A stretch of DNA of 64,000 nt from a virus (Duplodnaviria; Heunggongvirae; Uroviricota; Caudoviricetes). Made by a program: the position numbers and the translations under genes. Below are positions 2,713 through 61,574 of this stretch, piece by piece (position 1 is the first letter of the stretch; every line of letters starts with the position of its first letter). The DNA is taken from IMG/VR virus record IMGVR_UViG_2799112923_000001; one strand, written 5' to 3'. Under the pieces are notes generated by a model that saw only the letters and a program-made list of their open reading frames with translations, searched no databases and was not told the origin of the DNA.

Positions 2713-3897
2713 ATGTTAAATGCTAATATGAATGACGGCAAGTCATTGGTAGTTATTATTGTTGGTGATACATCTGGTTGTTCCCATATTCGTTTAAGAC
2801 ATAATGCGTTGTGGTATGGCGGTCATGAACATTTCGGATTTACACCTGTAATTACCCCCATTCCAATATTTGACCCAATGTATCTTGCTAGAACTAAAGC
2901 AATAGTTATTCAAAGACCTGTTTCTCCAGCACATATTGAAATGGTTAAACGATACAAAGCATTACAACCAAAGTTTGGTTTTAAACTTGTTTCGGAATTT
3001 GATGACCAGGTTTGGGAGATTGATGGTCAAGGTATTCCTGAATACAATACCGCTTCCCTACATTTTGATATTAAGGGAACTACAAATGTTGCTGAACAGA
3101 CTTTCCCATTGTTTGATGAATTGGTTGTTTCTACCGAGTTCTTAAAAGTAAAACTCATTGAACGATTTGGAATCCCAGAACAGAAAGTACATGTTATTCG
3201 TAATGTTGTACCAAGATATTTGTGGAGTTTTCCAAGAAAACAAAACAGAACTGAAGATTTGGTAAAGCCAAAAGTTTTGTATAGTGGTTCTCCTTGCCAT
3301 TATCGTAATCCTGTTCCAGCAAGAAAACCAAGTCCACAAGAGCCACAGGGTTTCCCAGGTATCACCCCATTAAAAGGTGATATGAATAACGCATGGTGTG
3401 ATTGGGTTATCAAGAATGTAAATGAAAATAAGATTGATTTCATTTGTATGGGTGCGTTGCCTTGGTTCTGGGAACCAATTAAGAACAAAATCAAATTTGT
3501 TCAGTGGGTAGATTCACAAAGTTATCCACGATTGGTTATGAGTTTGGGTGCCGATTTCCAAATTGCCCCATTAGTTTGTAATAACTTCAATAAATGTAAA
3601 TCTTCTTTGAGATATACAGAATCTTGTGCTGCGGGTACTGTTCTATTTGGTACTGTATTCCACGAAGATAAATGGTCTCCTTATGAAGAAATACCTGAAG
3701 AATGTAAAATCCTAGATAACGCAACTGTTGAAGATATTGATAAAAAATTCTTTGAAGCATGTAAGAAAGATAATTACAACAAACTATTAAATCAAAACTA
3801 CGATTTCATTAACAATAATGGTTATTGGATGGAATCTAACAAACATGCCCAAGAATGGTTGTGTATGATAGATAACGGAAATAATACTTTCATTTAA
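2713..3897 (+). CDS. Glycosyltransferase-like protein (GT-B type)
   Basis: DTSGCSHIRL, EFDDQVW and APLVCNNFNKCKSSLRYTE motifs typical of phage glycosyltransferases; GAGGTG RBS. Confidence 0.7.
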   Translation: MLNANMNDGKSLVVIIVGDTSGCSHIRLRHNALWYGGHEHFGFTPVITPIPIFDPMYLARTKAIVIQRPVSPAHIEMVKRYKALQPKFGFKLVSEFDDQVWEIDGQGIPEYNTASLHFDIKGTTNVAEQTFPLFDELVVSTEFLKVKLIERFGIPEQKVHVIRNVVPRYLWSFPRKQNRTEDLVKPKVLYSGSPCHYRNPVPARKPSPQEPQGFPGITPLKGDMNNAWCDWVIKNVNENKIDFICMGALPWFWEPIKNKIKFVQWVDSQSYPRLVMSLGADFQIAPLVCNNFNKCKSSLRYTESCAAGTVLFGTVFHEDKWSPYEEIPEECKILDNATVEDIDKKFFEACKKDNYNKLLNQNYDFINNNGYWMESNKHAQEWLCMIDNGNNTFI

Positions 3898-30244: not shown

Positions 30245-31596
30245 TGGGAATTGGTGATATACTTTGCGAATACATCTATGGTGGATTTCTAGTAGTCAAA
30301 GCAGCTTTGGAAGTTGCTCAAAAGACCGCCAAGGCCTTATTAAAAGCAGCCAATACCCTGTTTGATACTCTCATGTCCCTTTGCCGTTATGTTATTGACA
30401 TCGGTATTGAAACTATCCTTAATGCTATACGAGTGTTCCAAAAATGGCTAGTGGATAAACTGCTGAATTTTGATTTTGATGCGATATGCCAAGGATTGTT
30501 CCGTTGTACCGAGTTCCTAGAACAAGTTCTTGACCCCAATTCTTTGTTGTGTAGAACAGTAAGAAAATACACAAACTATAACCCAGGCCCACAAGAAGAA
30601 TTGTATAGAACTATCGGTGATTTTAGAGAATTTAAGAATCAAATTTGTTCATTTGGTTTTACATTCAATTTTGGTTTATCCGCAATAAAAGAAATGTTGG
30701 ATGCTTATTATGCTATGTGTACAGAATTTCTTGATATGTTGGATAGAAACAAAGAAAGAATTAGAAGATTTTTACAAAAATATCTTGATACTTTGATTGA
30801 TATCGGTGTATTTGATATGCTTGATAGATTGAAGAAGTTCTTTGATTGCGTATTGATTGATACCGAAATTTGTTCTAACATTAGAACTGCTAATTCATTC
30901 TACAATACTTGTTTAAGAAAGATGTGTATTGAAGAATCAGGTGATGGTTATAAACTTGACTCAAACATGTCAGCAGAATATATGAACGCATTTGATAGCA
31001 GAATAAACAACTTGAACAATTCCAAGAATGATTTGAAGAAACTCATTGATAGTATGTTGAACCCTTCACAGGTTAATGCTGCTAAAAACGCATTTAATCT
31101 TTCAGCTATGATTTTCCCAGGTGGTGCTTCCTGGAAAGATATTAAAGAAGGCAACTTTTGGAAGAAAAATAGATGTTATCAGTATTTCAAAATGAAACGC
31201 AGAGCATTTATCAATTCATTCAAAAGACAACACCCAGAGTATGAAGCTGCTGGAACAGATGCTATTTTGGGTAATATGACTATCAATGACGATGCTGGTT
31301 ATGTTGAAGTCACTATGAATGGTGATAATGGATTTGAAACCATTAGATTTGAGAATGGTCAGATTGATGGTATGGAATTAGTTCCTGATAATACAGAATA
31401 TAATATGAAAGTAACCGACGAAAAAGTACAAACTAATGCTGCTCTATATAATAAAGATACTGACGAAATTACATCTTCTTTGAGAGGTGCCATTGAAATT
31501 TCAGTATTGGGTAATGAAAGTTTAAAGAACCAGGTAATGAAGATTGGTGGCATTAAGGGTTATACCAGTGAAAGTGAATTAATGACAGGTAATTAA
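30244..31596 (+). CDS. Hypothetical helical, Cys-rich late protein
   Basis: 450-aa ORF translationally coupled to the tube paralog. Confidence 0.6.
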   Translation: MGIGDILCEYIYGGFLVVKAALEVAQKTAKALLKAANTLFDTLMSLCRYVIDIGIETILNAIRVFQKWLVDKLLNFDFDAICQGLFRCTEFLEQVLDPNSLLCRTVRKYTNYNPGPQEELYRTIGDFREFKNQICSFGFTFNFGLSAIKEMLDAYYAMCTEFLDMLDRNKERIRRFLQKYLDTLIDIGVFDMLDRLKKFFDCVLIDTEICSNIRTANSFYNTCLRKMCIEESGDGYKLDSNMSAEYMNAFDSRINNLNNSKNDLKKLIDSMLNPSQVNAAKNAFNLSAMIFPGGASWKDIKEGNFWKKNRCYQYFKMKRRAFINSFKRQHPEYEAAGTDAILGNMTINDDAGYVEVTMNGDNGFETIRFENGQIDGMELVPDNTEYNMKVTDEKVQTNAALYNKDTDEITSSLRGAIEISVLGNESLKNQVMKIGGIKGYTSESELMTGN

Positions 31597-34574: not shown

Positions 34575-37117
34575 TGTTAAAACATAGTGAAACCATAATA
34601 AATTCTAATGTTAGACGCCAAGATGCTACCTGGGATTATCGTTGGGAATACAATAACAGTGATAATCCAAATACCATATTTGAAAAGCCAGATATGCAGC
34701 AAGAAGGTCAGTTTGGTAATGAAACTTGGTATTTTTGTGGTGATGCTAGTGAGTTAAGACAATACGATAGTTCTACCTGGGACCCTAATCATCCTGTATT
34801 TGAGTATGATAGTGCTAATCCTGAATCCTGGGATGAATCACACCCATATAACCCAACCCGTTATTTAAGCCCTGGTGATAGTAAATTTATTCGTATCACC
34901 AATTCTGTACAAAATGTTACTATTGACCCTATTCCACCTGAATTCGTCACAGATTATGGTACCGAATACTTAACATTGGAATCTAAACTTGATGGTAGAA
35001 GTTGGGTGGATAAAAGCACACCTGAAAGAATTAAATATAAATTCTCACAAGCAACAAGAGAAATCGTTTTAGAGTTCAAAGACGAAATTGGTTTGGACTA
35101 TAAACAGGTCGCATTGTATACTGGTGATGAAGAAATTGATTGGGGTAATGTAAAAGAATTAACTGATAACATAATTTATTACTATGATAGAACATTAGAT
35201 AAATCTTTACAACAGAAATATGTAGAACACATGTCCTTCAATTCTACTAAGGATGGTCAGTATAGAGTTGCTTTCTCATTGAATGAACAATGGGCTAAAA
35301 TCAAAAAATACACTGATAACAAAGTATTTTACGATGAAGAAAAACTTGAAACATACATTAACGATGTAGGTTCAATTTATAATGTAGAATACAAGAAAGG
35401 TGGTGAAGATATAAGTAGACCCAAATATGGTAAAGCCAAACTAAATCTAATCGTTTGGGATTTAGCAGGCAACTACTCAATTTACCATATCGTTAGACCA
35501 TTCAATACATTAAAACTTGAAGATTTAAATAATCTCGTCCCAGTAGATATTTTGTTCAAAGATATAGAACCAAAGAACTACTATTTGGAAGATGGTATTG
35601 AAGGCAAGATTATTACTGATGTTTATGACCCAAACGATATTCTATGGGAATATGAAAATGTTGCTAAACTAATGGAAGGTTCCATTGGTGTAATTGATAA
35701 AGGTTCTTACGAAGCAGGTGATAACAGAAAAAAACCATTAACAGGTGTTCGTGAATTTATTATCACTCACCTTACAGAAAGTGGTAATGTAGAAGTTGAA
35801 GCCTGGGTTGAAACTGGCTTCCCTGAAATTGATGAACTAATTAAAGAACGAACATATAATACCGCTATATGTGGTCCTTGGGTTTATGGAGCAGAAGGTA
35901 GAAGATACCATATCACTCCTTATGTTCCTAAGTATCTACACGGTACTGAGTTCGCAGACTTTATGGAATTTTTCCAGTTGTACATTAACACAATGTACCA
36001 GGGAATGGAAAGTAAAAAGAACATTTCAGCACTAGAAAAGATTGCTAGAATTGGTAACTTCAATGATATTGCTAGATTGGAAGATTCATTAGTTTATCAC
36101 TATGCTAAACAGTTCGGAAATGAATTTGATTTTGATGTTGATTCATTACAGAATGTGAACTTGATATTTGATGGTATGGGTTTCACCACAAGAGATATGA
36201 AAGAAACCTTTGATATTATCAAATATGTTTTGGAAGAATTACCAGCATATAACCGCTATAAGGGTACTAACACTGGTATTACTATGGCTATTAGAATGTT
36301 TGGTTTCGCATGCCAAATTATAAATGTATGGGTTCGTAGAGATATTGAAGTAGAAAAAGACCCTAACTTTATTGAAGAGGATAGATTATACTCATACGAA
36401 GAATACTTTATGACCTCTCGTTTTGATTTGGAATTGAAAGCCGATAACAATAAATTCAAAACATTCTGTGAAAACATTGATATGTTTATAGATTTAATCA
36501 AATCCATTAAGCCTATTACAAAGATTTTGAATTTGATTAAATACACAATTATACATGAACTTAATGTAAATCTTGTGTATGATATTGACGAAATAGAAGA
36601 TACTAATAATCCTGTGAAAGAATACTCCTTCAAATGGTATTTTGATAATGAACACGAAAAGAGTATAAAGAACATTAAGAAACTATGCTCAATGGATTAT
36701 AGTACTGGTACTGTAGATTTATTCTGTTTAAATTATAGACCAGATGTAGTTTCACCACAAGCAACTACACCACCAATGGTTTATAATGTAATTGGTAAGT
36801 TCTTGAAATCAAAATTTGAAGAAATCATTTTGACTGTAGAAGCAACTAAAACAGAAAAGGCTATTGAAGATAATGTAGATATAGAAGTTCCATCAACTAC
36901 AACATATAATTTGAATAGAGCAGGGTTGACTCCAATCTTAAATGCTGGTTCATTCTTCTTATATCTAACTGATGCTTCTAATGGAACACACGGCTATAAT
37001 ATGATTCATAAATTCTTTGACTATAAAAATCTTGAACTTGGTTATTTGAAAATCACTATTTCTATGAGATTTAAAATTCAAAACGGCACAGATTATGCTG
37101 TCGCATTAACACCATAA
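34574..37117 (+). CDS. Baseplate wedge protein (gp7/P2 gpI-like C-terminal domain)
   Basis: YVPKYL...FMEFFQLY...YAKQFG...YNRYKGTNTGI...IKP. Confidence 0.65.
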   Translation: MLKHSETIINSNVRRQDATWDYRWEYNNSDNPNTIFEKPDMQQEGQFGNETWYFCGDASELRQYDSSTWDPNHPVFEYDSANPESWDESHPYNPTRYLSPGDSKFIRITNSVQNVTIDPIPPEFVTDYGTEYLTLESKLDGRSWVDKSTPERIKYKFSQATREIVLEFKDEIGLDYKQVALYTGDEEIDWGNVKELTDNIIYYYDRTLDKSLQQKYVEHMSFNSTKDGQYRVAFSLNEQWAKIKKYTDNKVFYDEEKLETYINDVGSIYNVEYKKGGEDISRPKYGKAKLNLIVWDLAGNYSIYHIVRPFNTLKLEDLNNLVPVDILFKDIEPKNYYLEDGIEGKIITDVYDPNDILWEYENVAKLMEGSIGVIDKGSYEAGDNRKKPLTGVREFIITHLTESGNVEVEAWVETGFPEIDELIKERTYNTAICGPWVYGAEGRRYHITPYVPKYLHGTEFADFMEFFQLYINTMYQGMESKKNISALEKIARIGNFNDIARLEDSLVYHYAKQFGNEFDFDVDSLQNVNLIFDGMGFTTRDMKETFDIIKYVLEELPAYNRYKGTNTGITMAIRMFGFACQIINVWVRRDIEVEKDPNFIEEDRLYSYEEYFMTSRFDLELKADNNKFKTFCENIDMFIDLIKSIKPITKILNLIKYTIIHELNVNLVYDIDEIEDTNNPVKEYSFKWYFDNEHEKSIKNIKKLCSMDYSTGTVDLFCLNYRPDVVSPQATTPPMVYNVIGKFLKSKFEEIILTVEATKTEKAIEDNVDIEVPSTTTYNLNRAGLTPILNAGSFFLYLTDASNGTHGYNMIHKFFDYKNLELGYLKITISMRFKIQNGTDYAVALTP

Positions 37118-37899: not shown

Positions 37900-39867
37900 A
37901 TGAAAAACATTGGAACTGTCAATGATATATTAATGTCTGATGGAATTAAGAATGTAGATTCTATCGCCAAGTTGAACATTATGACCGAAGCCAATAATGA
38001 CTTTGATAAGAATGTTCCACAAATTATGTTATCACAAACCACTACTGGTACTGTGAAGACTTGGAATGGTGATAGATTAACCATTAATTATGCCAGTGGT
38101 AATAATGCTGGGTATTTCGGTATTTCCGAAATTACTGGTTCATATAGAAAAAGATTGAATTTTGAAATCCTAGGTGCTAACAATGTATTCCATACTTCTG
38201 TTGGCGGAACCTATGGAAACTCCTTCATTTATGCCCAAGGCAACAAATTATCCAAGAATACTCACGATTGTAATTTCATTCATTCCGATTACAACACATT
38301 CAATACTTCTGCCGCAAATTCATTCAATTTTATCCATTCTCATAACAACACTTTTAAAGCTGGTAGTTATGATAATGTTTATGCATCAGCCAATAACATT
38401 TCTTTATACAACTCTAACGATAACACATTCAATCCACTTCCAGCCACATATACTGTAGTTTCTACAAAGGGTTCTACAAAAGGCCAAACAGAAAGATTTG
38501 GTGTTAAAGGTTGTTTCTTACGCAACCAAACCTTGATTGGTTCTAACTTTAACTACATCAAAGGTAGAGTGGTTGCTAATGGAACTACAAATGTACCTAA
38601 CACTACTTTCATTAACTCTAACAGTGGTTTGTATGATTTCAATGAACACCACGGTTCATTAACATTCATTGGTAATACATTTGGTTATTACAACAATGTA
38701 AGTGGTGGTAATGTAATTGGTATTGGTGAAGGTCTTATTCAGGATGGTGGTAGTTCCGATAAGATTTTGTTAGGTTTCTATAACCAAAACACAACTGACC
38801 CTAACGAAGTATTGGTTGTTGGTGATGGTAGATTGAATCGTAGTTATGTTAAGGGATTAACAAAAAACTATGGTGATGATTGGAACACCAAGCATGGTGC
38901 TTGGAACAAGATTATGGGTAGCATTAGTGGTACAGGTTCTACTGCTTATAATGATACACACTATCGTCACAATATCTTTACTGTTAATAAGCAAGGATAT
39001 GTAACAATTTCCGATTACCAAGTACCAAGTAATTCTGCTCGTTATGGTTATAAGGGTATCACTGCTTATGTAGATGGTGCTGTATATGATATTCCATTCG
39101 CCAAAGTCTATAACAAGATTAACGGCAACGATGCAGTTGATATTATGCAGGAAACTATTGATTCTTACACACATACTATTCAAACAAGAATTGATAGTAT
39201 GCCAACTACTAAATTTGAAACATTCACAGACCCAAAGAGTATTGTAAACACAACTATTCAAACATCTGGTTATTTGAATTTGGATAAACCAAGTAATAAC
39301 GCAGCTTTGAAAATTATTAAAGATATTGATACCTACACAAATAATTCTATAATTGGTGTATCATATCAGCCTGATACTATTGGTAATAGTAAGAGAAGAA
39401 TACCTGCAAAGATTGTATGGTCTTACTATCCACCTGTAGAAAATGGTAAGAGTAATAAGGTTACACTATCTACTTTGATTTACCCATATTGTACTAAACA
39501 ATTTATCTTGCGTAAACCTTATTATCCTTCTACTGATAAACAACAAAAACCATTCAGTGGTATTACATTGGTAGAAAGTGACGATTCAACAAAGAATATC
39601 AATTACGAAAGCGTTACACCAGTTACAGATGCATTGAAGTATTATTTGACTATAAACGATAACAATACTGTTAGATATTATAATGGTTCTACTGCTTCAT
39701 ACCAAACAAATAATTGGATTACAATTCCTGAAAACGAAGATGTTTCTACCTATGCATCATTTACTGCTAAATGGACTACCGCTTCATTAGATACTATGAA
39801 TACTATCAATGATTCTATTAGTGCTGAACGTGGTGATTACGCAGATGTAAACTATTATTATGTGTGA
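37900..39867 (+). CDS. Tail fibre/adhesin-like protein
   Basis: N/S/T-rich beta repeats; LGFYN...VVGDG...RHNIFTV motif. Confidence 0.6.
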   Translation: MKNIGTVNDILMSDGIKNVDSIAKLNIMTEANNDFDKNVPQIMLSQTTTGTVKTWNGDRLTINYASGNNAGYFGISEITGSYRKRLNFEILGANNVFHTSVGGTYGNSFIYAQGNKLSKNTHDCNFIHSDYNTFNTSAANSFNFIHSHNNTFKAGSYDNVYASANNISLYNSNDNTFNPLPATYTVVSTKGSTKGQTERFGVKGCFLRNQTLIGSNFNYIKGRVVANGTTNVPNTTFINSNSGLYDFNEHHGSLTFIGNTFGYYNNVSGGNVIGIGEGLIQDGGSSDKILLGFYNQNTTDPNEVLVVGDGRLNRSYVKGLTKNYGDDWNTKHGAWNKIMGSISGTGSTAYNDTHYRHNIFTVNKQGYVTISDYQVPSNSARYGYKGITAYVDGAVYDIPFAKVYNKINGNDAVDIMQETIDSYTHTIQTRIDSMPTTKFETFTDPKSIVNTTIQTSGYLNLDKPSNNAALKIIKDIDTYTNNSIIGVSYQPDTIGNSKRRIPAKIVWSYYPPVENGKSNKVTLSTLIYPYCTKQFILRKPYYPSTDKQQKPFSGITLVESDDSTKNINYESVTPVTDALKYYLTINDNNTVRYYNGSTASYQTNNWITIPENEDVSTYASFTAKWTTASLDTMNTINDSISAERGDYADVNYYYV

Positions 39868-59744: not shown

Positions 59745-59819
59745 GGCCCTATCGTCTAGTTTTGGTTAGGACACAAGAATTTCACTCTTGAAACACCAGT
59801 TCAAATCTGGTTGGGGCTA
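59745..59819 (+). tRNA. tRNA-Glu(TTC)
   Basis: CAAGA-atTTCac-TCTTG anticodon arm; TTCAAAT T-loop. Confidence 0.9.
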
Positions 59820-59834
59820 CTAACAAACTAATAT

Positions 59835-59907
59835 GGTACTGTAGAATACTTGGTTAGTTCGCTGCCCTTTCAAGGCGGAAAAGAGAGTTCAAATCTCTCC
59901 AGTACTA
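59835..59907 (+). tRNA. tRNA-Glu(TTC)
   Basis: CTGCC-ctTTCaa-GGCGG. Confidence 0.9.
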
Positions 59908-59920
59908 CTAACAAATTAAT

Positions 59921-59994
59921 GGGTGTGTGGTGAAGTGGTTTAACACACCGGTCTGTCTAACCGGCATACGCGGGTCCGAATCCCGCCATACTCG
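59921..59994 (+). tRNA. tRNA-Asp(GTC)
   Basis: CCGGT-ctGTCta-ACCGG; G73. Confidence 0.9.
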
Positions 59995-60006
59995 CTAAAA
60001 CATTTT

Positions 60007-60080
60007 GGTTTCGTGGTGAAGTGGTCTAACACATTGGTCTGTCTAACCAACATTCGTGGGTTCAAATCCCACCGGAATCG
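60007..60080 (+). tRNA. tRNA-Asp(GTC)
   Basis: TTGGT-ctGTCta-ACCAA; G73. Confidence 0.9.
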
Positions 60081-60090
60081 TACAAATTAT

Positions 60091-60166
60091 GGGCTTGTAG
60101 TTCAGTCTTTGGTAGAACGCCGCACTTGCACTGCGGAGGTCATGGGTTCAAATCCCTTCAGGTCCA
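60091..60166 (+). tRNA. tRNA-Ala(TGC)
   Basis: CCGCA-ctTGCac-TGCGG; G3:U70. Confidence 0.92.
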
Positions 60167-60181
60167 CTACATACAAATTAT

Positions 60182-60254
60182 TCCACCTTAGATCAGTTGG
60201 TAGATCAGGGCACTGTTAATGCCTTAGTCCCAGGTCCGAGTCCTGGAGGTGGAG
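60182..60254 (+). tRNA. tRNA-Asn(GTT)
   Basis: GGGCA-ctGTTaa-TGCCT; G73. Confidence 0.9.
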
Positions 60255-60268
60255 CGAAAACAAAAAAT

Positions 60269-60305
60269 GGTGGTAATCCACTGGTGCTGGAAGCACCTTA
60301 AAAAC
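60269..60305 (+). ncRNA. Double-hairpin RNA element, copy 2
   Basis: GGTGG-TAAT-CCACT GGTGC-TGGAA-GCACC TTAAAAAC. Confidence 0.65.
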
Positions 60306-60308
60306 TTG

Positions 60309-60382
60309 GCCCTCTAATCCAAATCCAGTGATTGGACCGGACTGAAAATCCGAGAAGCTGCGGGCGGCACGCAGAGTGGGCA
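60309..60382 (+). tRNA. Atypical tRNA-Phe(GAA)
   Basis: CGGA-ctGAAaa-TCCG; T arm CTGCG-GGCGGCA-CGCAG (non-canonical loop). Confidence 0.7.
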
Positions 60383-60394
60383 CGAACAAATTAT

Positions 60395-60467
60395 TCCGGT
60401 ATAACTCAACTGGTAGAGTGTTTCCTTCATACGGAAAAAGTTGTAGGTTCAAATCCTACTACCGGGA
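60395..60467 (+). tRNA. tRNA-Met(CAT) (elongator; Ile2 not excluded)
   Basis: TTTCC-ttCATac-GGAAA. Confidence 0.8.
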
Positions 60468-60479
60468 CTAACAAATTAA

Positions 60480-60555
60480 CTCTCCTTCGCCTAGCTGGTT
60501 TATGGCACCTGTCTTACAAACAGGAACAACCTTGGTTCAAATCCAAGAGGGGAGA
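60480..60555 (+). tRNA. tRNA-Val(TAC)
   Basis: CCTGT-ctTACaa-ACAGG; A73. Confidence 0.85.
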
Positions 60556-60558
60556 TAC

Positions 60559-60629
60559 TGCCCATTGGTGTAATGGTAACACGGCTCGCTCTGACCGAGC
60601 AATCAGTAGTCCGAATCTATTATGGGCAA
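60559..60629 (+). tRNA. tRNA-Gln(CTG)
   Basis: GCTCG-ctCTGac-CGAGC; U1:A72. Confidence 0.88.
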
Positions 60630-60641
60630 CGAACAAATTAT

Positions 60642-60718
60642 CGGCAACTATCTCCTCGCTCTGATAAGGCGTTGAAAGAGTAAATGGTTACATGTAGGTT
60701 CAATCCCTATGTTGCCGA
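60642..60718 (+). tRNA. Atypical tRNA-Ile(GAT)-like RNA with no D arm at the normal position
   Basis: Acceptor CGGCAAC/GTTGCCG, CGCT-ctGATaa-GGCG, normal T arm, long 3' insertion. Confidence 0.7.
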
Positions 60719-60722
60719 CTAT

Positions 60723-60796
60723 CGCCCGGTGACGGAACTGGCATACGTGTCTGCCTTAGAAGCAGAATTTTGAGAGTTCAAATCTCTCCTGGGCGA
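60723..60796 (+). tRNA. tRNA-Leu(TAG), short variable loop
   Basis: TCTGC-ctTAGaa-GCAGA; A73. Confidence 0.88.
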
Positions 60797-60808
60797 CTAA
60801 ACATTTTT

Positions 60809-60893
60809 GGAGGTGTGGCAGAGCGGCTTATTGCGTCGGTCCTGAAAACCGAAGATGGTAAAACATCCGTGGGTTCAAATCCTACCACCTCTT
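60809..60893 (+). tRNA. tRNA-Ser(TGA)
   Basis: TCGGT-ccTGAaa-ACCGA; long variable arm; C33. Confidence 0.85.
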
Positions 60894-60901
60894 CTACTTA
60901 T

Positions 60902-60974
60902 ACTCTCGTAGGCTAACTGGATAAACCACTGGACTACGAATCCGGCATTGAAGGTTCAAATCCTTCCGAGAGTA
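60902..60974 (+). tRNA. tRNA-Arg(ACG)
   Basis: CTGGA-ctACGaa-TCCGG. Confidence 0.92.
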
Positions 60975-60988
60975 CGAACAAATTATTT

Positions 60989-61062
60989 GTGGCTATATCA
61001 TAGTCTGGTTAATGAGCCTGTTTACCAAACAGGTTACCTGGGTTCAAATCCCAGTAGCCACT
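60989..61062 (+). tRNA. tRNA-Gly(ACC)
   Basis: CCTGT-ttACCaa-ACAGG; U73. Confidence 0.82.
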
Positions 61063-61070
61063 TACCAAAT

Positions 61071-61159
61071 GCTTATGTGACCCGAGTCTGGCGAAGGGGG
61101 CGGTCTGCAAAACCGTTGTGTTTACAGCACCATCGTTGGTTCAAATCCAATCATAAGCT
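61071..61159 (+). tRNA. tRNA-Cys(GCA) with long variable arm
   Basis: GCGGT-ctGCAaa-ACCGT; U73. Confidence 0.85.
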
Positions 61160-61163
61160 CTAT

Positions 61164-61234
61164 ATCTCATTGGTGTAACGGCAGCATGGCTGGTTCCAAC
61201 CCAGTTGGTGGGGGTTCAAATCCTTCATGAGGTG
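61164..61234 (+). tRNA. tRNA-Trp(CCA)
   Basis: GCTGG-ttCCAac-CCAGT; G73. Confidence 0.88.
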
Positions 61235-61247
61235 CGAAAGTAAATAA

Positions 61248-61319
61248 GTCCTATTGGTGTAGCTGGAAACATGGCAGTCTTCCAAACTGGTGTCGCGGGT
61301 CCGAACCCCGCATAGGGCT
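61248..61319 (+). tRNA. tRNA-Gly(TCC)
   Basis: CAGT-ctTCCaa-ACTG; U73. Confidence 0.85.
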
Positions 61320-61338
61320 CTACAAACAAACTATCATC

Positions 61339-61412
61339 TCCGTATTAGTGTTAATTGGTTAGCACGCAAGTTTGTGGCACTTGTAGTCTGAGTTCAAATC
61401 TCAGATATGGAA
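61339..61412 (+). tRNA. tRNA-His(GTG)
   Basis: CAAGT-ttGTGgc-ACTTG; lacks encoded G-1/C73. Confidence 0.82.
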
Positions 61413-61415
61413 TAT

Positions 61416-61487
61416 ATCTCCGTATGTCAATGGTTAGACGAGCAGACTCTTAATCTGTGGATCTGGGTCCGAATCCCAGCGGGGGTA
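61416..61487 (+). tRNA. tRNA-Lys(CTT)
   Basis: GCAGA-ctCTTaa-TCTGT. Confidence 0.88.
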
Positions 61488-61501
61488 CGAACAAATTAAA
61501 T

Positions 61502-61574
61502 GGGCTTACATGTTCCTTGGAGGCGAATCTCCCTAGCACGGAGATTGTGATGGGTCCGATTCCCATTAGGTCCA
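61502..61574 (+). tRNA. tRNA-Ala(AGC)
   Basis: TCTCC-ctAGCac-GGAGA; G3:U70; weak D arm. Confidence 0.78.

What the first reader, a model, noticed from the sequence alone, without database searches (positions are those of the whole stretch)
60642..60718. tRNA-Ile(GAT)-like RNA with rewired topology: D-loop-like element moved 3' of the anticodon arm
Seen: a perfect 7-bp acceptor stem, a normal T arm and a ctGATaa loop, but only about 8 nt (TATCTCCT) between the acceptor and anticodon stems. A 22-nt stretch after the anticodon arm contains GTAA-ATGG-TTAC, which resembles a D arm with its GG, and CTC/GAG could extend the anticodon helix. It carries the same flanking spacer and CTA trailer as the ordinary tRNAs. 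Inference: a functional tRNA with permuted arms that standard scanners may miss and that host tRNA nucleases may not recognise.
Basis: partly seen in the sequence, partly recalled or inferred. Interest (0 to 1): 0.72.

Follow-up and report, generated by a model that had tools for sequence, protein, structure and literature searches.

The report
Rewired non-cloverleaf phage isoleucine tRNA
This 77-base gene in a giant rumen phage's tRNA array is very probably its working isoleucine tRNA. It is built on a non-cloverleaf plan in which one D-stem strand and the D-loop lie after the anticodon arm. Hundreds of phages use this plan for isoleucine and arginine, gene finders miss it, and I found no paper describing it.

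Summary
Window 60642-60718 (+) has a perfect 7-bp acceptor stem, a canonical T arm and a CUGAUAA loop, but no D hairpin. ARAGORN (all modes) and the Rfam tRNA model miss it. It is not a decayed gene. I collected 108 distinct relatives from phage contigs and cultured phages (Bacteroides Kehishuvirus; Streptomyces and Microbacterium phages).

Covariation and RNAalifold support four helices: acceptor, anticodon stem, T stem, and a long-range 3-bp helix (CTC 60652-54 with GAG 60678-80) that closes around the anticodon arm.

The strand after this helix behaves as a D-loop: invariant A14-like A, a covarying R15:Y48 pair, and GG. The base after GG is U/C in all 108 Ile-type genes and A (the ArgRS determinant A20) in 87/87 Arg-type genes with the same wiring.

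The scaffold carries only Ile (GAU/UAU/CAU) or Arg anticodons. In a complete 415-kb relative, canonical tRNAs cover 19 amino acids. Only Ile is missing, and the rewired genes carry GAU.

Best reading (about 0.8): a functional tRNA-Ile(GAU) with segment 10-21 transposed behind the anticodon arm. Charging and decoding are untested. Earlier reports of this scan found the same class on other DNA.

The parts
60642..60648 (+). Acceptor stem, 5' strand (CGGCAAC; positions 1-7)
   Evidence: Pairs perfectly with 60711-60717. All 7 pairs show double compensatory changes across 108 relatives, 97% paired.
60649..60651 (+). U8-A9 plus U (TAT); the third U corresponds to canonical position 22
   Evidence: Present in all members found, including copies found by the covariance model rather than by pattern. 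The invariance is partly imposed by the search patterns.
60652..60654 (+). CTC: 5' strand of the long-range D-stem-like helix (alignment columns 11-13; topologically the canonical 23-25 strand)
   Evidence: Pairs with GAG at 60678-80. Pair 11-39 is CG 83 / AU 20 / UA 5. Pair 12-38 is CG 60 / UA 42 / AU 3 / UG 2. Pair 13-37 is CG 108. RNAalifold predicts the helix independently. Arg-type relatives add GCC/GGC, CGG/CCG, CCG/CGG and others.
60655..60656 (+). CT: 5' side of the internal loop (analogues of positions 26 and 27)
   Evidence: Conserved in all members (partly imposed by the pattern). U15 faces U31, giving a fifth U.U layer of the anticodon stem (inference).
60657..60671 (+). Anticodon arm: stem CGCT/GGCG and 7-nt loop CTGATAA; anticodon GAT at 60663-60665
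   Evidence: Stem is 99.8% paired, with 3 of 4 pairs showing double changes. The closing pair is U.G or U-A, and A-U or G-C in model-found copies. The loop keeps C32, U33, A37, A38. Anticodons in the Ile-type family are only TAT 59, GAT 41, CAT 8.
60672..60677 (+). TTGAAA: 3' side of the internal loop or bulge, in the place of the variable loop (43-47)
   Evidence: T-W-GAAA is conserved in Ile-type and Arg-type members, partly imposed by the pattern. Its role in groove triples is inference.
60678..60680 (+). GAG: 3' strand of the long-range helix (columns 37-39; topologically canonical 10-12, G37 = G10)
   Evidence: See the CTC entry. C13-G37 is invariant in the 108 Ile-type members, like the canonical C25-G10 pair. 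It changes to G-C in one Arg-type copy, with compensation.
60681..60693 (+). TAAATGGTTACAT: relocated D-loop equivalent plus linker. A60682 = A14, A60683 = R15, GG 60686-87 = G18 G19, T60688 = position 20, CA 60691-92 = linker, T60693 = Y48.
   Evidence: T40, A41, G46, C50 and A51 are invariant and G45 is >=90%, none of them imposed by the patterns. Columns 42 and 52 covary: A-T 53, G-C 39, G-G 10, MI 0.79, the best non-helix pair. Column 47 is T or C in all 108 Ile-type members but A in 87/87 Arg-type members.
60694..60710 (+). T arm: stem GTAGG/CCTAT and loop TTCAATC
   Evidence: Stem is 99.1% paired, with 4 of 5 pairs showing double changes. The G53-C61 equivalent is invariant, and the loop T-T-C-R-A is canonical.
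60711..60718 (+). Acceptor stem, 3' strand (GTTGCCG) and discriminator A; no encoded CCA (CTA follows)
   Evidence: The discriminator is A in all 108 Ile-type members.

Best explanation
The element is the phage's functional elongator tRNA-Ile(GAU). It reads AUU and AUC and is made from the tRNA operon like its neighbours. It folds into an L-shape equivalent to a normal tRNA but with a different chain connectivity.

Relative to the cloverleaf order 8-9 | 10-21 | 22-25 | 26 | 27-43 | 44-47 | 48, the order here is 8-9 | 22-25 | 26 | 27-43 | 44-47 | 10-21 | CA | 48. The consequences are:
- The D-stem (CTC/GAG plus a U.U layer) is a long-range helix that closes around the anticodon arm and stacks on it. 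The stack has the same number of layers as D-stem + 26 + anticodon stem.
- The D-loop nucleotides (A14, R15, G18 G19, N20) follow as a joining strand. This strand meets U8, Y48 and the T-loop at the elbow.

Shown: the four helices, the tertiary-type covariation, the restriction to Ile and Arg anticodons, the identity-like position 20, and the gap-filling distribution.

Inferred: transcription and processing, CCA addition, charging by host IleRS, use on the ribosome, and the 3D equivalence.
For: (1) Family and selection.
- 108 distinct 76-77-nt relatives come from more than 150 phage contigs and cultured phages: Kehishuvirus 'tikkala' on Bacteroides, more than 80 Streptomyces Samistivirus/BE-cluster records, and Microbacterium phage Magritte.
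- Only 3 hits occur in 185,579 prokaryote genomes, all on MAG contigs.

(2) Structure.
- 98.6% of cells are paired and 16 of 19 pairs show double changes. The shuffled control gives 66.8% paired.
- RNAalifold predicts the same four helices unaided.

(3) Canonical tRNA core is kept.
- The T-loop TTCRA and the G53-C61 equivalent are conserved.
- U8 and the A14-like A are invariant.
- A Levitt-type R15:Y48 covariation is present: A-U 53, G-C 39, G-G 10.
- The GG is conserved.

(4) Identity signature.
- The same wiring occurs with Arg anticodons: ACG 62, TCT 20, CCT 6, TCG 6, CCG 2. There the base after GG is A in 87/87, versus U or C in all 108 Ile-type members.
- A20 is the main bacterial ArgRS determinant, and U20 is listed for bacterial Ile (PMC9976931).
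- A73, A35, U36, A37 and A38 are kept.

(5) Anticodon restriction.
- With the anticodon left free, only NAT was found.
- Control scans of the same scaffold with N[G/U]N or N[A/C][A/C] anticodons gave only unfoldable chance matches.

(6) Gap filling.
- In the complete 415,750-bp relative G002, 46 distinct canonical tRNAs serve 19 amino acids. Only Ile is missing, and its two rewired genes carry GAT.
- G001 lacks canonical Ile and Phe and has one rewired GAT gene.
- In 34 loci whose element carries GAT, ARAGORN finds no canonical Ile(GAT).
- The window's own array has no other Ile tRNA, although ATT and ATC make up 56 per 1000 codons.

(7) The element sits in register in the array, with the same spacers as its neighbours.

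(8) Contigs from rumen metatranscriptome libraries cover it. Their only base difference inside the element is at the freely variable column 43. This is weak evidence.
Against: - No direct evidence exists of a processed 77-nt RNA, of CCA addition, of aminoacylation or of decoding. The metatranscriptome contigs span several tRNAs and could be DNA carry-over.
- The long-range helix is only 3 bp.
- The 3D equivalence is an argument from layer counts and conserved tertiary partners, not a model.
- Part of the apparent invariance (columns 8-10, 13-15, 19, 21, 25, 31, 33-37) was imposed by the search patterns used to collect relatives.
- Streptomyces phage Mildred21 also has canonical Ile(gat) and Ile(tat) genes, so the rewired gene is not always the only supplier.
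- The Kehishuvirus copy has two U.U mismatches in its acceptor stem.
- Some E. coli Ile determinants are not conserved in the family: C4-G69 is variable, and 29-41 is G-C in the window.
Confidence: 0.8

Rival explanations
1. It is a conserved tRNA mimic that is not used in translation. It could be a decoy or sponge for a host factor (an anticodon nuclease, a modification enzyme, a defence sensor), or a regulatory or primer RNA that only looks like tRNA-Ile.
For: The non-canonical core is missed by tRNA models. Strong conservation alone does not prove decoding. In Mildred21 it coexists with a canonical Ile(gat) gene. Phage genomes with these genes also carry other odd tRNA-shaped RNAs.
Against: A decoy would not need all of the features that are kept: a 12-bp acceptor/T branch, the discriminator, a 7-nt loop with U33 and A37, and the aaRS-type position-20 split (A in 87/87 Arg-type, U or C in 108/108 Ile-type). 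It would also not be expected to fill exactly the one missing amino acid in a 46-tRNA set, or to avoid duplicating the canonical isoacceptor in 34 loci.
Confidence: 0.12
2. One reading: a D-armless tRNA whose long variable region folds into a D-arm-like hairpin (GTAA-ATGG-TTAC). This would be a whole arm moved 3' of the anticodon arm.
For: In the window's own sequence the 4-bp hairpin can form, and single-sequence folding draws a 3-bp version of it. In 108 relatives, 79% of its cells are still pairable.
Against: Pair 39-50 is broken in 25 of 108. Pair 41-48 is broken in 44 of 87. Only one of its four pairs shows any double change, and that in just 2 sequences. Column 39 instead covaries perfectly with column 11 (CG 83, AU 20, UA 5). 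RNAalifold does not predict the hairpin.
Confidence: 0.04
3. It is a decaying pseudogene or an assembly or rearrangement artefact of an ordinary tRNA-Ile gene.
For: No D hairpin, and no call by any tRNA finder.
Against: There are 108 distinct sequences of constant length (76-77 nt) with compensatory changes in every helix, found in unrelated phages and in finished genomes of cultured phages. Between the window and related giant-phage loci, only the 87 nt around this gene stay 96-98% identical. Independent rumen DNA and RNA runs carry it.
Confidence: 0.01

Closest known systems
Canonical bacterial and phage elongator tRNA-Ile(GAU) (class I cloverleaf; Rfam RF00005)
   Same: 77 nt without CCA. 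It has a 7-bp acceptor stem, a 5-bp T stem, a TTCRA T-loop, a 7-nt anticodon loop C-U-GAU-A-A and discriminator A73. U8, an A14-like A, an R15:Y48-type covarying pair, G18 G19 and U20 are all present. It sits in a tRNA operon and fills the Ile gap in phage tRNA sets.
   Different: There is no D hairpin between positions 9 and 26. The D-stem is a 3-bp long-range helix enclosing the anticodon arm, and the D-loop nucleotides follow that helix as a joining strand. A conserved WGAAA bulge replaces the variable loop. The Rfam model and ARAGORN do not detect it.
Metazoan mitochondrial D-armless tRNAs, e.g. mt-tRNA-Ser(AGY) and nematode mt-tRNA-Ser (PMC4013460, PMC7609411)
   Same: A short connector replaces a D hairpin 5' of the anticodon arm. 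The result is a three-arm secondary structure that is a working tRNA.
   Different: Those tRNAs have lost the D-loop/T-loop contacts and are shortened and flexible. They need co-evolved mitochondrial factors. Here the D-stem and D-loop elements are retained but re-threaded, length is the normal 77 nt, the T-loop and GG are canonical, and hosts are ordinary bacteria. ARAGORN's mitochondrial modes do not find it.
Allo-tRNAs and 8/4 or 9/3 tRNAs of bacteria and phages (Mukai et al., PMC5389517)
   Same: They are naturally occurring non-standard tRNA architectures, found by mining metagenomes and partly phage-borne. They occur inside tRNA gene clusters.
   Different: Those keep the cloverleaf connectivity and change the acceptor/T stem lengths. 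This class keeps 7/5 and changes the connectivity of the D region.
Circularly permuted tRNA genes of the red alga Cyanidioschyzon merolae (my own knowledge, Soma et al. 2007; not checked here)
   Same: The order of tRNA segments along the gene differs from the cloverleaf order.
   Different: There the 3' half precedes the 5' half in the gene, and processing through a circular intermediate restores a normal cloverleaf RNA. Here the termini are normal, and the rearranged order (10-21 moved behind 47) is presumably kept in the mature RNA.

Membership tests
tRNA (Rfam RF00005, class I cloverleaf) | 7-bp acceptor stem closed by the two ends, with a single discriminator base | tested here: met
   60642-48 pairs with 60711-17, plus A60718. 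97% paired, and all 7 pairs covary in 108 relatives.
tRNA (Rfam RF00005, class I cloverleaf) | 5-bp T stem with a T-loop T54-T55-C56-R57-A58 and a G53-C61 pair | tested here: met
   GTAGG/TTCAATC/CCTAT. The G-C closing pair and T, C, A of the loop are invariant, and the second T is at least 90% conserved, in 108 relatives.
tRNA (Rfam RF00005, class I cloverleaf) | Anticodon arm with a 7-nt loop, U33 and a purine at 37 | tested here: met
   CGCT / CTGATAA / GGCG. The stem is 99.8% paired with covariation.
tRNA (Rfam RF00005, class I cloverleaf) | D arm as a local hairpin between positions 9 and 26 | tested here: not met
   Only 8 nt lie between the acceptor and anticodon stems. The D-stem equivalent is a long-range helix, 60652-54 with 60678-80.
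tRNA (Rfam RF00005, class I cloverleaf) | Score at or above the family's gathering threshold (29 bits) | tested here: not met
   No RF00005 match overlaps 60642-60718 even at E<=10. ARAGORN of 108 family members.
tRNA (Rfam RF00005, class I cloverleaf) | Tertiary core: U8:A14, R15:Y48 Levitt pair, G18 G19 meeting the T-loop | tested here: met
   T8 and A41 are invariant. Columns 42 and 52 covary (A-U 53, G-C 39, G-G 10). The GG is conserved. The contacts themselves are inferred, not observed.
tRNA (functional definition) | Processed, given CCA, aminoacylated and used on the ribosome | not testable with these tools
   Only indirect evidence is available: the identity-like position 20, gap filling, and presence in RNA-library contigs.
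Bacterial tRNA-Ile identity set (PMC9976931, Table 1) | A73, A35, U36, A37, A38 and G/C34 | tested here: met
   All are present in the window. A73, A35 and U36 are invariant. A37 is also invariant but was imposed by the search patterns. A38 is >=90% conserved across 108 relatives.
Bacterial tRNA-Ile identity set (PMC9976931, Table 1) | U20 in the D-loop | tested here: met
   Under the mapping G45 G46 = G18 G19, column 47 is T (>=90%) or C in the Ile-type members and A in 87/87 Arg-type members.
Bacterial tRNA-Ile identity set (PMC9976931, Table 1) | C4-G69, U12-A23, C29-G41 (E. coli set) | tested here: inconclusive
   The window has C4-G69, but the pair varies in the family. The 29-41 equivalent is G-C in the window. 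The 12-23 equivalent is G-C in the window and U-A in the Streptomyces-phage type. The hosts are not E. coli.
Metazoan mitochondrial D-armless tRNA | Loss of the D-stem and D-loop, with loss of the canonical D-loop/T-loop elbow contacts | tested here: not met
   D-stem and D-loop equivalents are retained and conserved. The T-loop is canonical. ARAGORN -mt modes find nothing.
   93.1 bits, E 2.7e-26, model positions 1-77. The window sequence was one of the 108 used to build the model, so this match holds by construction. The independent support is the roughly 180 hits of 80 bits or more in other loci.

The most novel reading that the evidence does not exclude
The re-threaded core is an adaptation, not a frozen accident. 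These Ile and Arg tRNAs would present the normal surfaces to IleRS or ArgRS, EF-Tu and the ribosome. At the same time they would escape something that reads the local D-arm of ordinary tRNAs. That could be a host tRNA-cleaving defence or toxin, or the phage's own means of depleting host tRNAs. On this reading the class would be a widespread phage counter-defence, and a natural proof that the cloverleaf connectivity is not required for translation.
Probability: 0.2. Interest if true: 0.92.

Novelty: new variant of a known kind. Interest (0 to 1): 0.8.

Why it matters
The cloverleaf connectivity is treated as universal for cytosolic-type tRNAs. The known exceptions shorten or lose arms (mitochondria) or change stem lengths (allo-tRNAs). 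This class appears to keep every element of the L-shaped core but joins them in a different order. It does so in hundreds of phages of unrelated hosts (Bacteroidota, Actinomycetota, rumen and environmental phages).

If confirmed, several things follow:
- The tRNA fold tolerates re-threading of its core.
- Phage tRNA complements, and analyses of which amino acids a phage supplies, are systematically under-counted for Ile and Arg. Some GenBank records mis-call these genes: EGole 'tRNA-Leu' and Mildred21 'tRNA-Phe(gaa)'.
- IleRS and ArgRS recognition of the D-loop can be studied on a different backbone path.
- A compact natural scaffold becomes available for tRNA engineering.

Cultured phages carry the gene, so it is directly testable.

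Tried and rejected
- Megablast of the array against GenBank phages found nothing. tblastn of a neighbouring 505-aa ORF also found nothing.
- ARAGORN in standard, mitochondrial (-mt, -mtx, -mtd) and relaxed modes found nothing. The only output was a spurious 96-nt 'Glu' call at -ps80.
- A helix between TGA (60673-75) and TTA (60688-90) looked good in the first 12 sequences. I dropped it because column 32 varies T/A and column 48 varies freely, with no compensation.
- The first broad pattern (TATCTCCT NNN TCTGATAA) returned mostly chance matches inside coding regions. These were filtered out by context.
- No whole genome is held for this window. I therefore could not list all tRNAs of this phage and used two related IMG/VR records instead.
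- Sequencing runs are held only as contigs, so they show no RNA ends, no CCA and no expression level. Parts of the array without cover in some RNA runs mean nothing.
- Eight literature searches and three papers read found no description of this architecture. The library lacks most subscription journals, so absence is not proven.
- I did not run tRNAscan-SE (not available) or any 3D modelling (no tool).
- The metagenome-contig scan was not used because it was not needed.

Full report
**1. The observation**

Window 60642-60718 (+) lies inside a phage-type tRNA array at 59745-61488, in which ARAGORN tRNAs. The array is preceded by sigma-70-like promoters and followed by a terminator hairpin.

- CGGCAAC pairs with GTTGCCG, followed by A.
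- The T arm is GTAGG-TTCAATC-CCTAT.
- The loop is CTGATAA.
- Only TATCTCCT lies before the anticodon stem.
- A 22-nt stretch after the stem contains GAG and then TAAATGGTTACAT.
- The spacer ACGAACAAATTAT is shared with the neighbouring genes.

The gene is invisible to ARAGORN in all modes. It is also invisible to the Rfam tRNA model, even at E<=10.

**2. It is a conserved gene family, not a wreck**

- A distant BLAST found a copy in an unannotated gap of the tRNA array of the crAss-like Kehishuvirus 'tikkala', a Bacteroides cellulosilyticus phage.
- Pattern scans of IMG/VR then gave well over 150 loci.
- BLAST of family members found the gene in more than 80 cultured Streptomyces phages (Samistivirus, cluster BE) and in Microbacterium phage Magritte. 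It is almost always unannotated there.
- In 185,579 prokaryotic species genomes the pattern occurs only three times, each on a MAG contig. The tRNA-rich loci and one 400-kb single contig suggest these are mis-binned phage DNA.
- I aligned 108 distinct sequences: 86 are 77 nt and 22 are 76 nt.
- Between the window and its closest giant-phage relatives, only the 87 nt around this gene remain 96-98% identical.

**3. Secondary structure**

On the 108 sequences, the structure of acceptor stem, helix 11-13/37-39, anticodon stem and T stem is 98.6% paired. The shuffled control gives 66.8%, and slid controls give 37-49%. Sixteen of 19 pairs show changes on both sides. RNAalifold predicts exactly this structure without being told.

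The new element is the long-range helix: CTC (60652-54) with GAG (60678-80).
- Its pair types are C-G 83 / A-U 20 / U-A 5, then C-G 60 / U-A 42 / A-U 3 / U-G 2, then C-G 108.
- The Streptomyces-phage version reads ACC/GGT.
- Arg-type relatives add GCC/GGC, CGG/CCG, CCG/CGG, CAC/GTG, TCC/GGA and others.

It is 79% paired, its outer pair is broken in 25 sequences, its third pair is broken in 44 of 87, and only one of its pairs shows a double change, in 2 sequences.

**4. The strand after the helix is a D-loop in a new place**

- T40, A41, G46, C50 and A51 are invariant and G45 is >=90%. None of these was imposed by my search patterns.
- The best non-helix covariation in the alignment is column 42 with column 52, the base just before the T stem: A-U 53, G-C 39, G-G 10 (MI 0.79). 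This is the signature of the Levitt pair R15:Y48.

With T8 and A41 standing for U8:A14, and G45 G46 for G18 G19, the columns map onto canonical numbering as follows:

| Alignment columns | Canonical positions |
|---|---|
| 10-13 | 22-25 |
| 14 | 26 |
| 15-31 | 27-43 |
| 32-36 | variable-loop place (WGAAA) |
| 37-40 | 10-13 (G37-C13 = G10-C25, invariant) |
| 41-49 | 14-21 |
| 50-51 | a CA linker |
| 52 | 48 |

In words, segment 10-21 (the D-stem 5' strand plus the D-loop) has been moved from in front of the anticodon arm to behind it. The D-stem 3' strand stayed in place.

The stack from anticodon stem to elbow keeps the canonical number of layers: 5 + 1 + 4. That this gives a normal L-shape is inference.

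**5. Evidence that it is charged and read as a tRNA**

(a) Anticodons. With the anticodon left free, only NAT anticodons were found on the scaffold. In the 108 members the counts are TAT 59, GAT 41 and CAT 8.

(b) Arg-type genes.
- The covariance model R1 found further genes with the same wiring but Arg anticodons in Streptomyces phage Mildred21 and in IMG/VR loci.
- A dedicated scan gave 96 distinct Arg-type genes: ACG 62, TCT 20, CCT 6, TCG 6 and CCG 2. There were none with the Ser anticodons that the pattern also allowed.
- Control scans of the same scaffold with N[G/T]N or N[A/C][A/C] anticodons returned only unfoldable chance matches.

(c) Position 20.
- The base after GG is A in 87/87 Arg-type genes and U or C in 108/108 Ile-type genes.
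- A20 is the principal bacterial ArgRS determinant. U20, A73, A35, U36, A37 and A38 are listed for bacterial Ile (PMC9976931).
- This split is hard to explain unless synthetases read this strand as a D-loop.

(d) Gap filling.
- The complete 415,750-bp relative G002 (direct terminal repeats, CheckV 100%) has 55 RF00005 matches and 46 distinct ARAGORN tRNAs. They cover 19 amino acids. Only Ile is missing, and its two rewired genes carry GAT.
- The 165-kb fragment G001 lacks canonical Ile and Phe and has one rewired GAT gene.
- In 34 loci with a GAT element, no canonical Ile(GAT) was called. Loci with CAT elements often have one.

(e) Demand in the window. The array has no other Ile tRNA, while ATT and ATC account for 56 of every 1000 codons in its long ORFs.

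**6. Caveats**

- Nothing here shows the RNA itself. Rumen metatranscriptome contigs cover the gene and differ only at a freely variable column (60684 A>C). They span several tRNAs and may be DNA carry-over.
- Mildred21 also has canonical Ile(gat) and Ile(tat) genes, so the rewired gene can be redundant.
- Several invariant columns were imposed by my patterns. Model-found copies show that at least the 19-27 pair and the 13-37 pair can change with compensation.
- The helix is short.

**7. Comparison with known kinds**

- It works like a class I elongator tRNA but fails two defining features of the cloverleaf family: a local D hairpin and the model score.
- It is not a mitochondrial-type D-armless tRNA, because its D elements and elbow are retained and its length is normal.
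- It is not an allo-tRNA, because the 7/5 branch is kept.
- It is not a permuted gene that is repaired by processing, because its termini are normal.
- I found no description in eight literature searches or in the reviews read. Rfam 15 has no family for it.
- GenBank annotators have occasionally mis-called members: EGole 'tRNA-Leu UUA'; Mildred21 'tRNA-Phe(gaa)' and 'tRNA-OTHER'.

**8. Earlier notes of this scan**

After reaching this reading I looked up the scan's notes. Several earlier follow-up reports on other genomes describe the same rewired Ile/Arg class and reach the same conclusion. I verified the shared claims independently here.

**9. Verdict**

Best explanation: a functional tRNA-Ile(GAU) with a re-threaded core, confidence about 0.8. 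Novelty: a new variant of a known kind. Interest: 0.8.

Noticed in passing
window 60256-60394: This 139-nt stretch is not called by ARAGORN or Rfam. It has two small hairpins (60269-60297). These are followed by a tRNA-like cloverleaf (about 60305-60385) with a CTGAAAA loop (anticodon GAA, Phe). Its T arm CTGCG-GGCGGCA-CGCAG lacks the TTCRA consensus.
   Followed up: partly
window 61502-61573: A second uncalled tRNA-like gene sits at the end of the array. Its acceptor stem GGGCTTA/TAGGTCC has a G3.U70 wobble (the Ala mark). It also has a 7-bp anticodon helix with loop CTAGCAC (anticodon AGC), a T arm ATGGG-TCCGATT-CCCAT, and a poorly paired D region. Model R1 does not match it.
   Followed up: partly
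L232 (Streptomyces phage Mildred21, MF155946.1) 35368-35443, 38858-38934, 30380-30454; L142 (EGole) 2995-3071: GenBank annotations mis-call or omit rewired tRNAs. Mildred21 'tRNA-Phe(gaa)' is a rewired Arg(TCG). An unannotated gap holds a rewired Arg(ACG). One 'tRNA-OTHER' is a rewired Arg(TCT). EGole 'tRNA-Leu (UUA)' is the rewired Ile(GAT).
   Followed up: yes
L142 2460-3071; L143 2465-3077: In Streptomyces BE-cluster phages the rewired Ile gene lies 13-15 nt downstream of a tRNA nucleotidyltransferase (CCA-adding enzyme) gene. The same genomes encode a Ro-like protein, an RNA ligase, a polynucleotide kinase and a tmRNA.
   Followed up: no
L132 936-1025 and 537-613; L125 5210-5290; L124 4872-4949: Weaker model hits (30-39 bits) look like more divergent rewired tRNAs. 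One is a 90-nt TAT version with an extra hairpin in the junction strand. One is a GAT version with TA-ACC...GGT wiring. There are also Arg(TCG/TCT) versions with longer junction strands. The class may be broader than my patterns could collect.
   Followed up: partly
window 60635-60721 versus L003, L004, L006, L007, L051: Only these 87 nt of the 64-kb window match the related giant-phage loci at E<1e-20 (96-98% identity). The neighbouring tRNAs and flanks do not. Either this gene is under much stronger constraint than its neighbours, or it moves between phages.
   Followed up: partly
L025 2392-2468 and 2645-2721; L051 5154-5318; L006 6220-6383; L141 2617-2693 and 3550-3626: Many phages carry two rewired Ile genes. 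Some are tandem GAT+GAT in giant phages. Others are GAT+TAT in crAss-like contigs, or CAT+GAT in a 400-kb MAG contig. The second copy explains why ARAGORN found no Ile(TAT) in some crAss-like arrays.
   Followed up: partly
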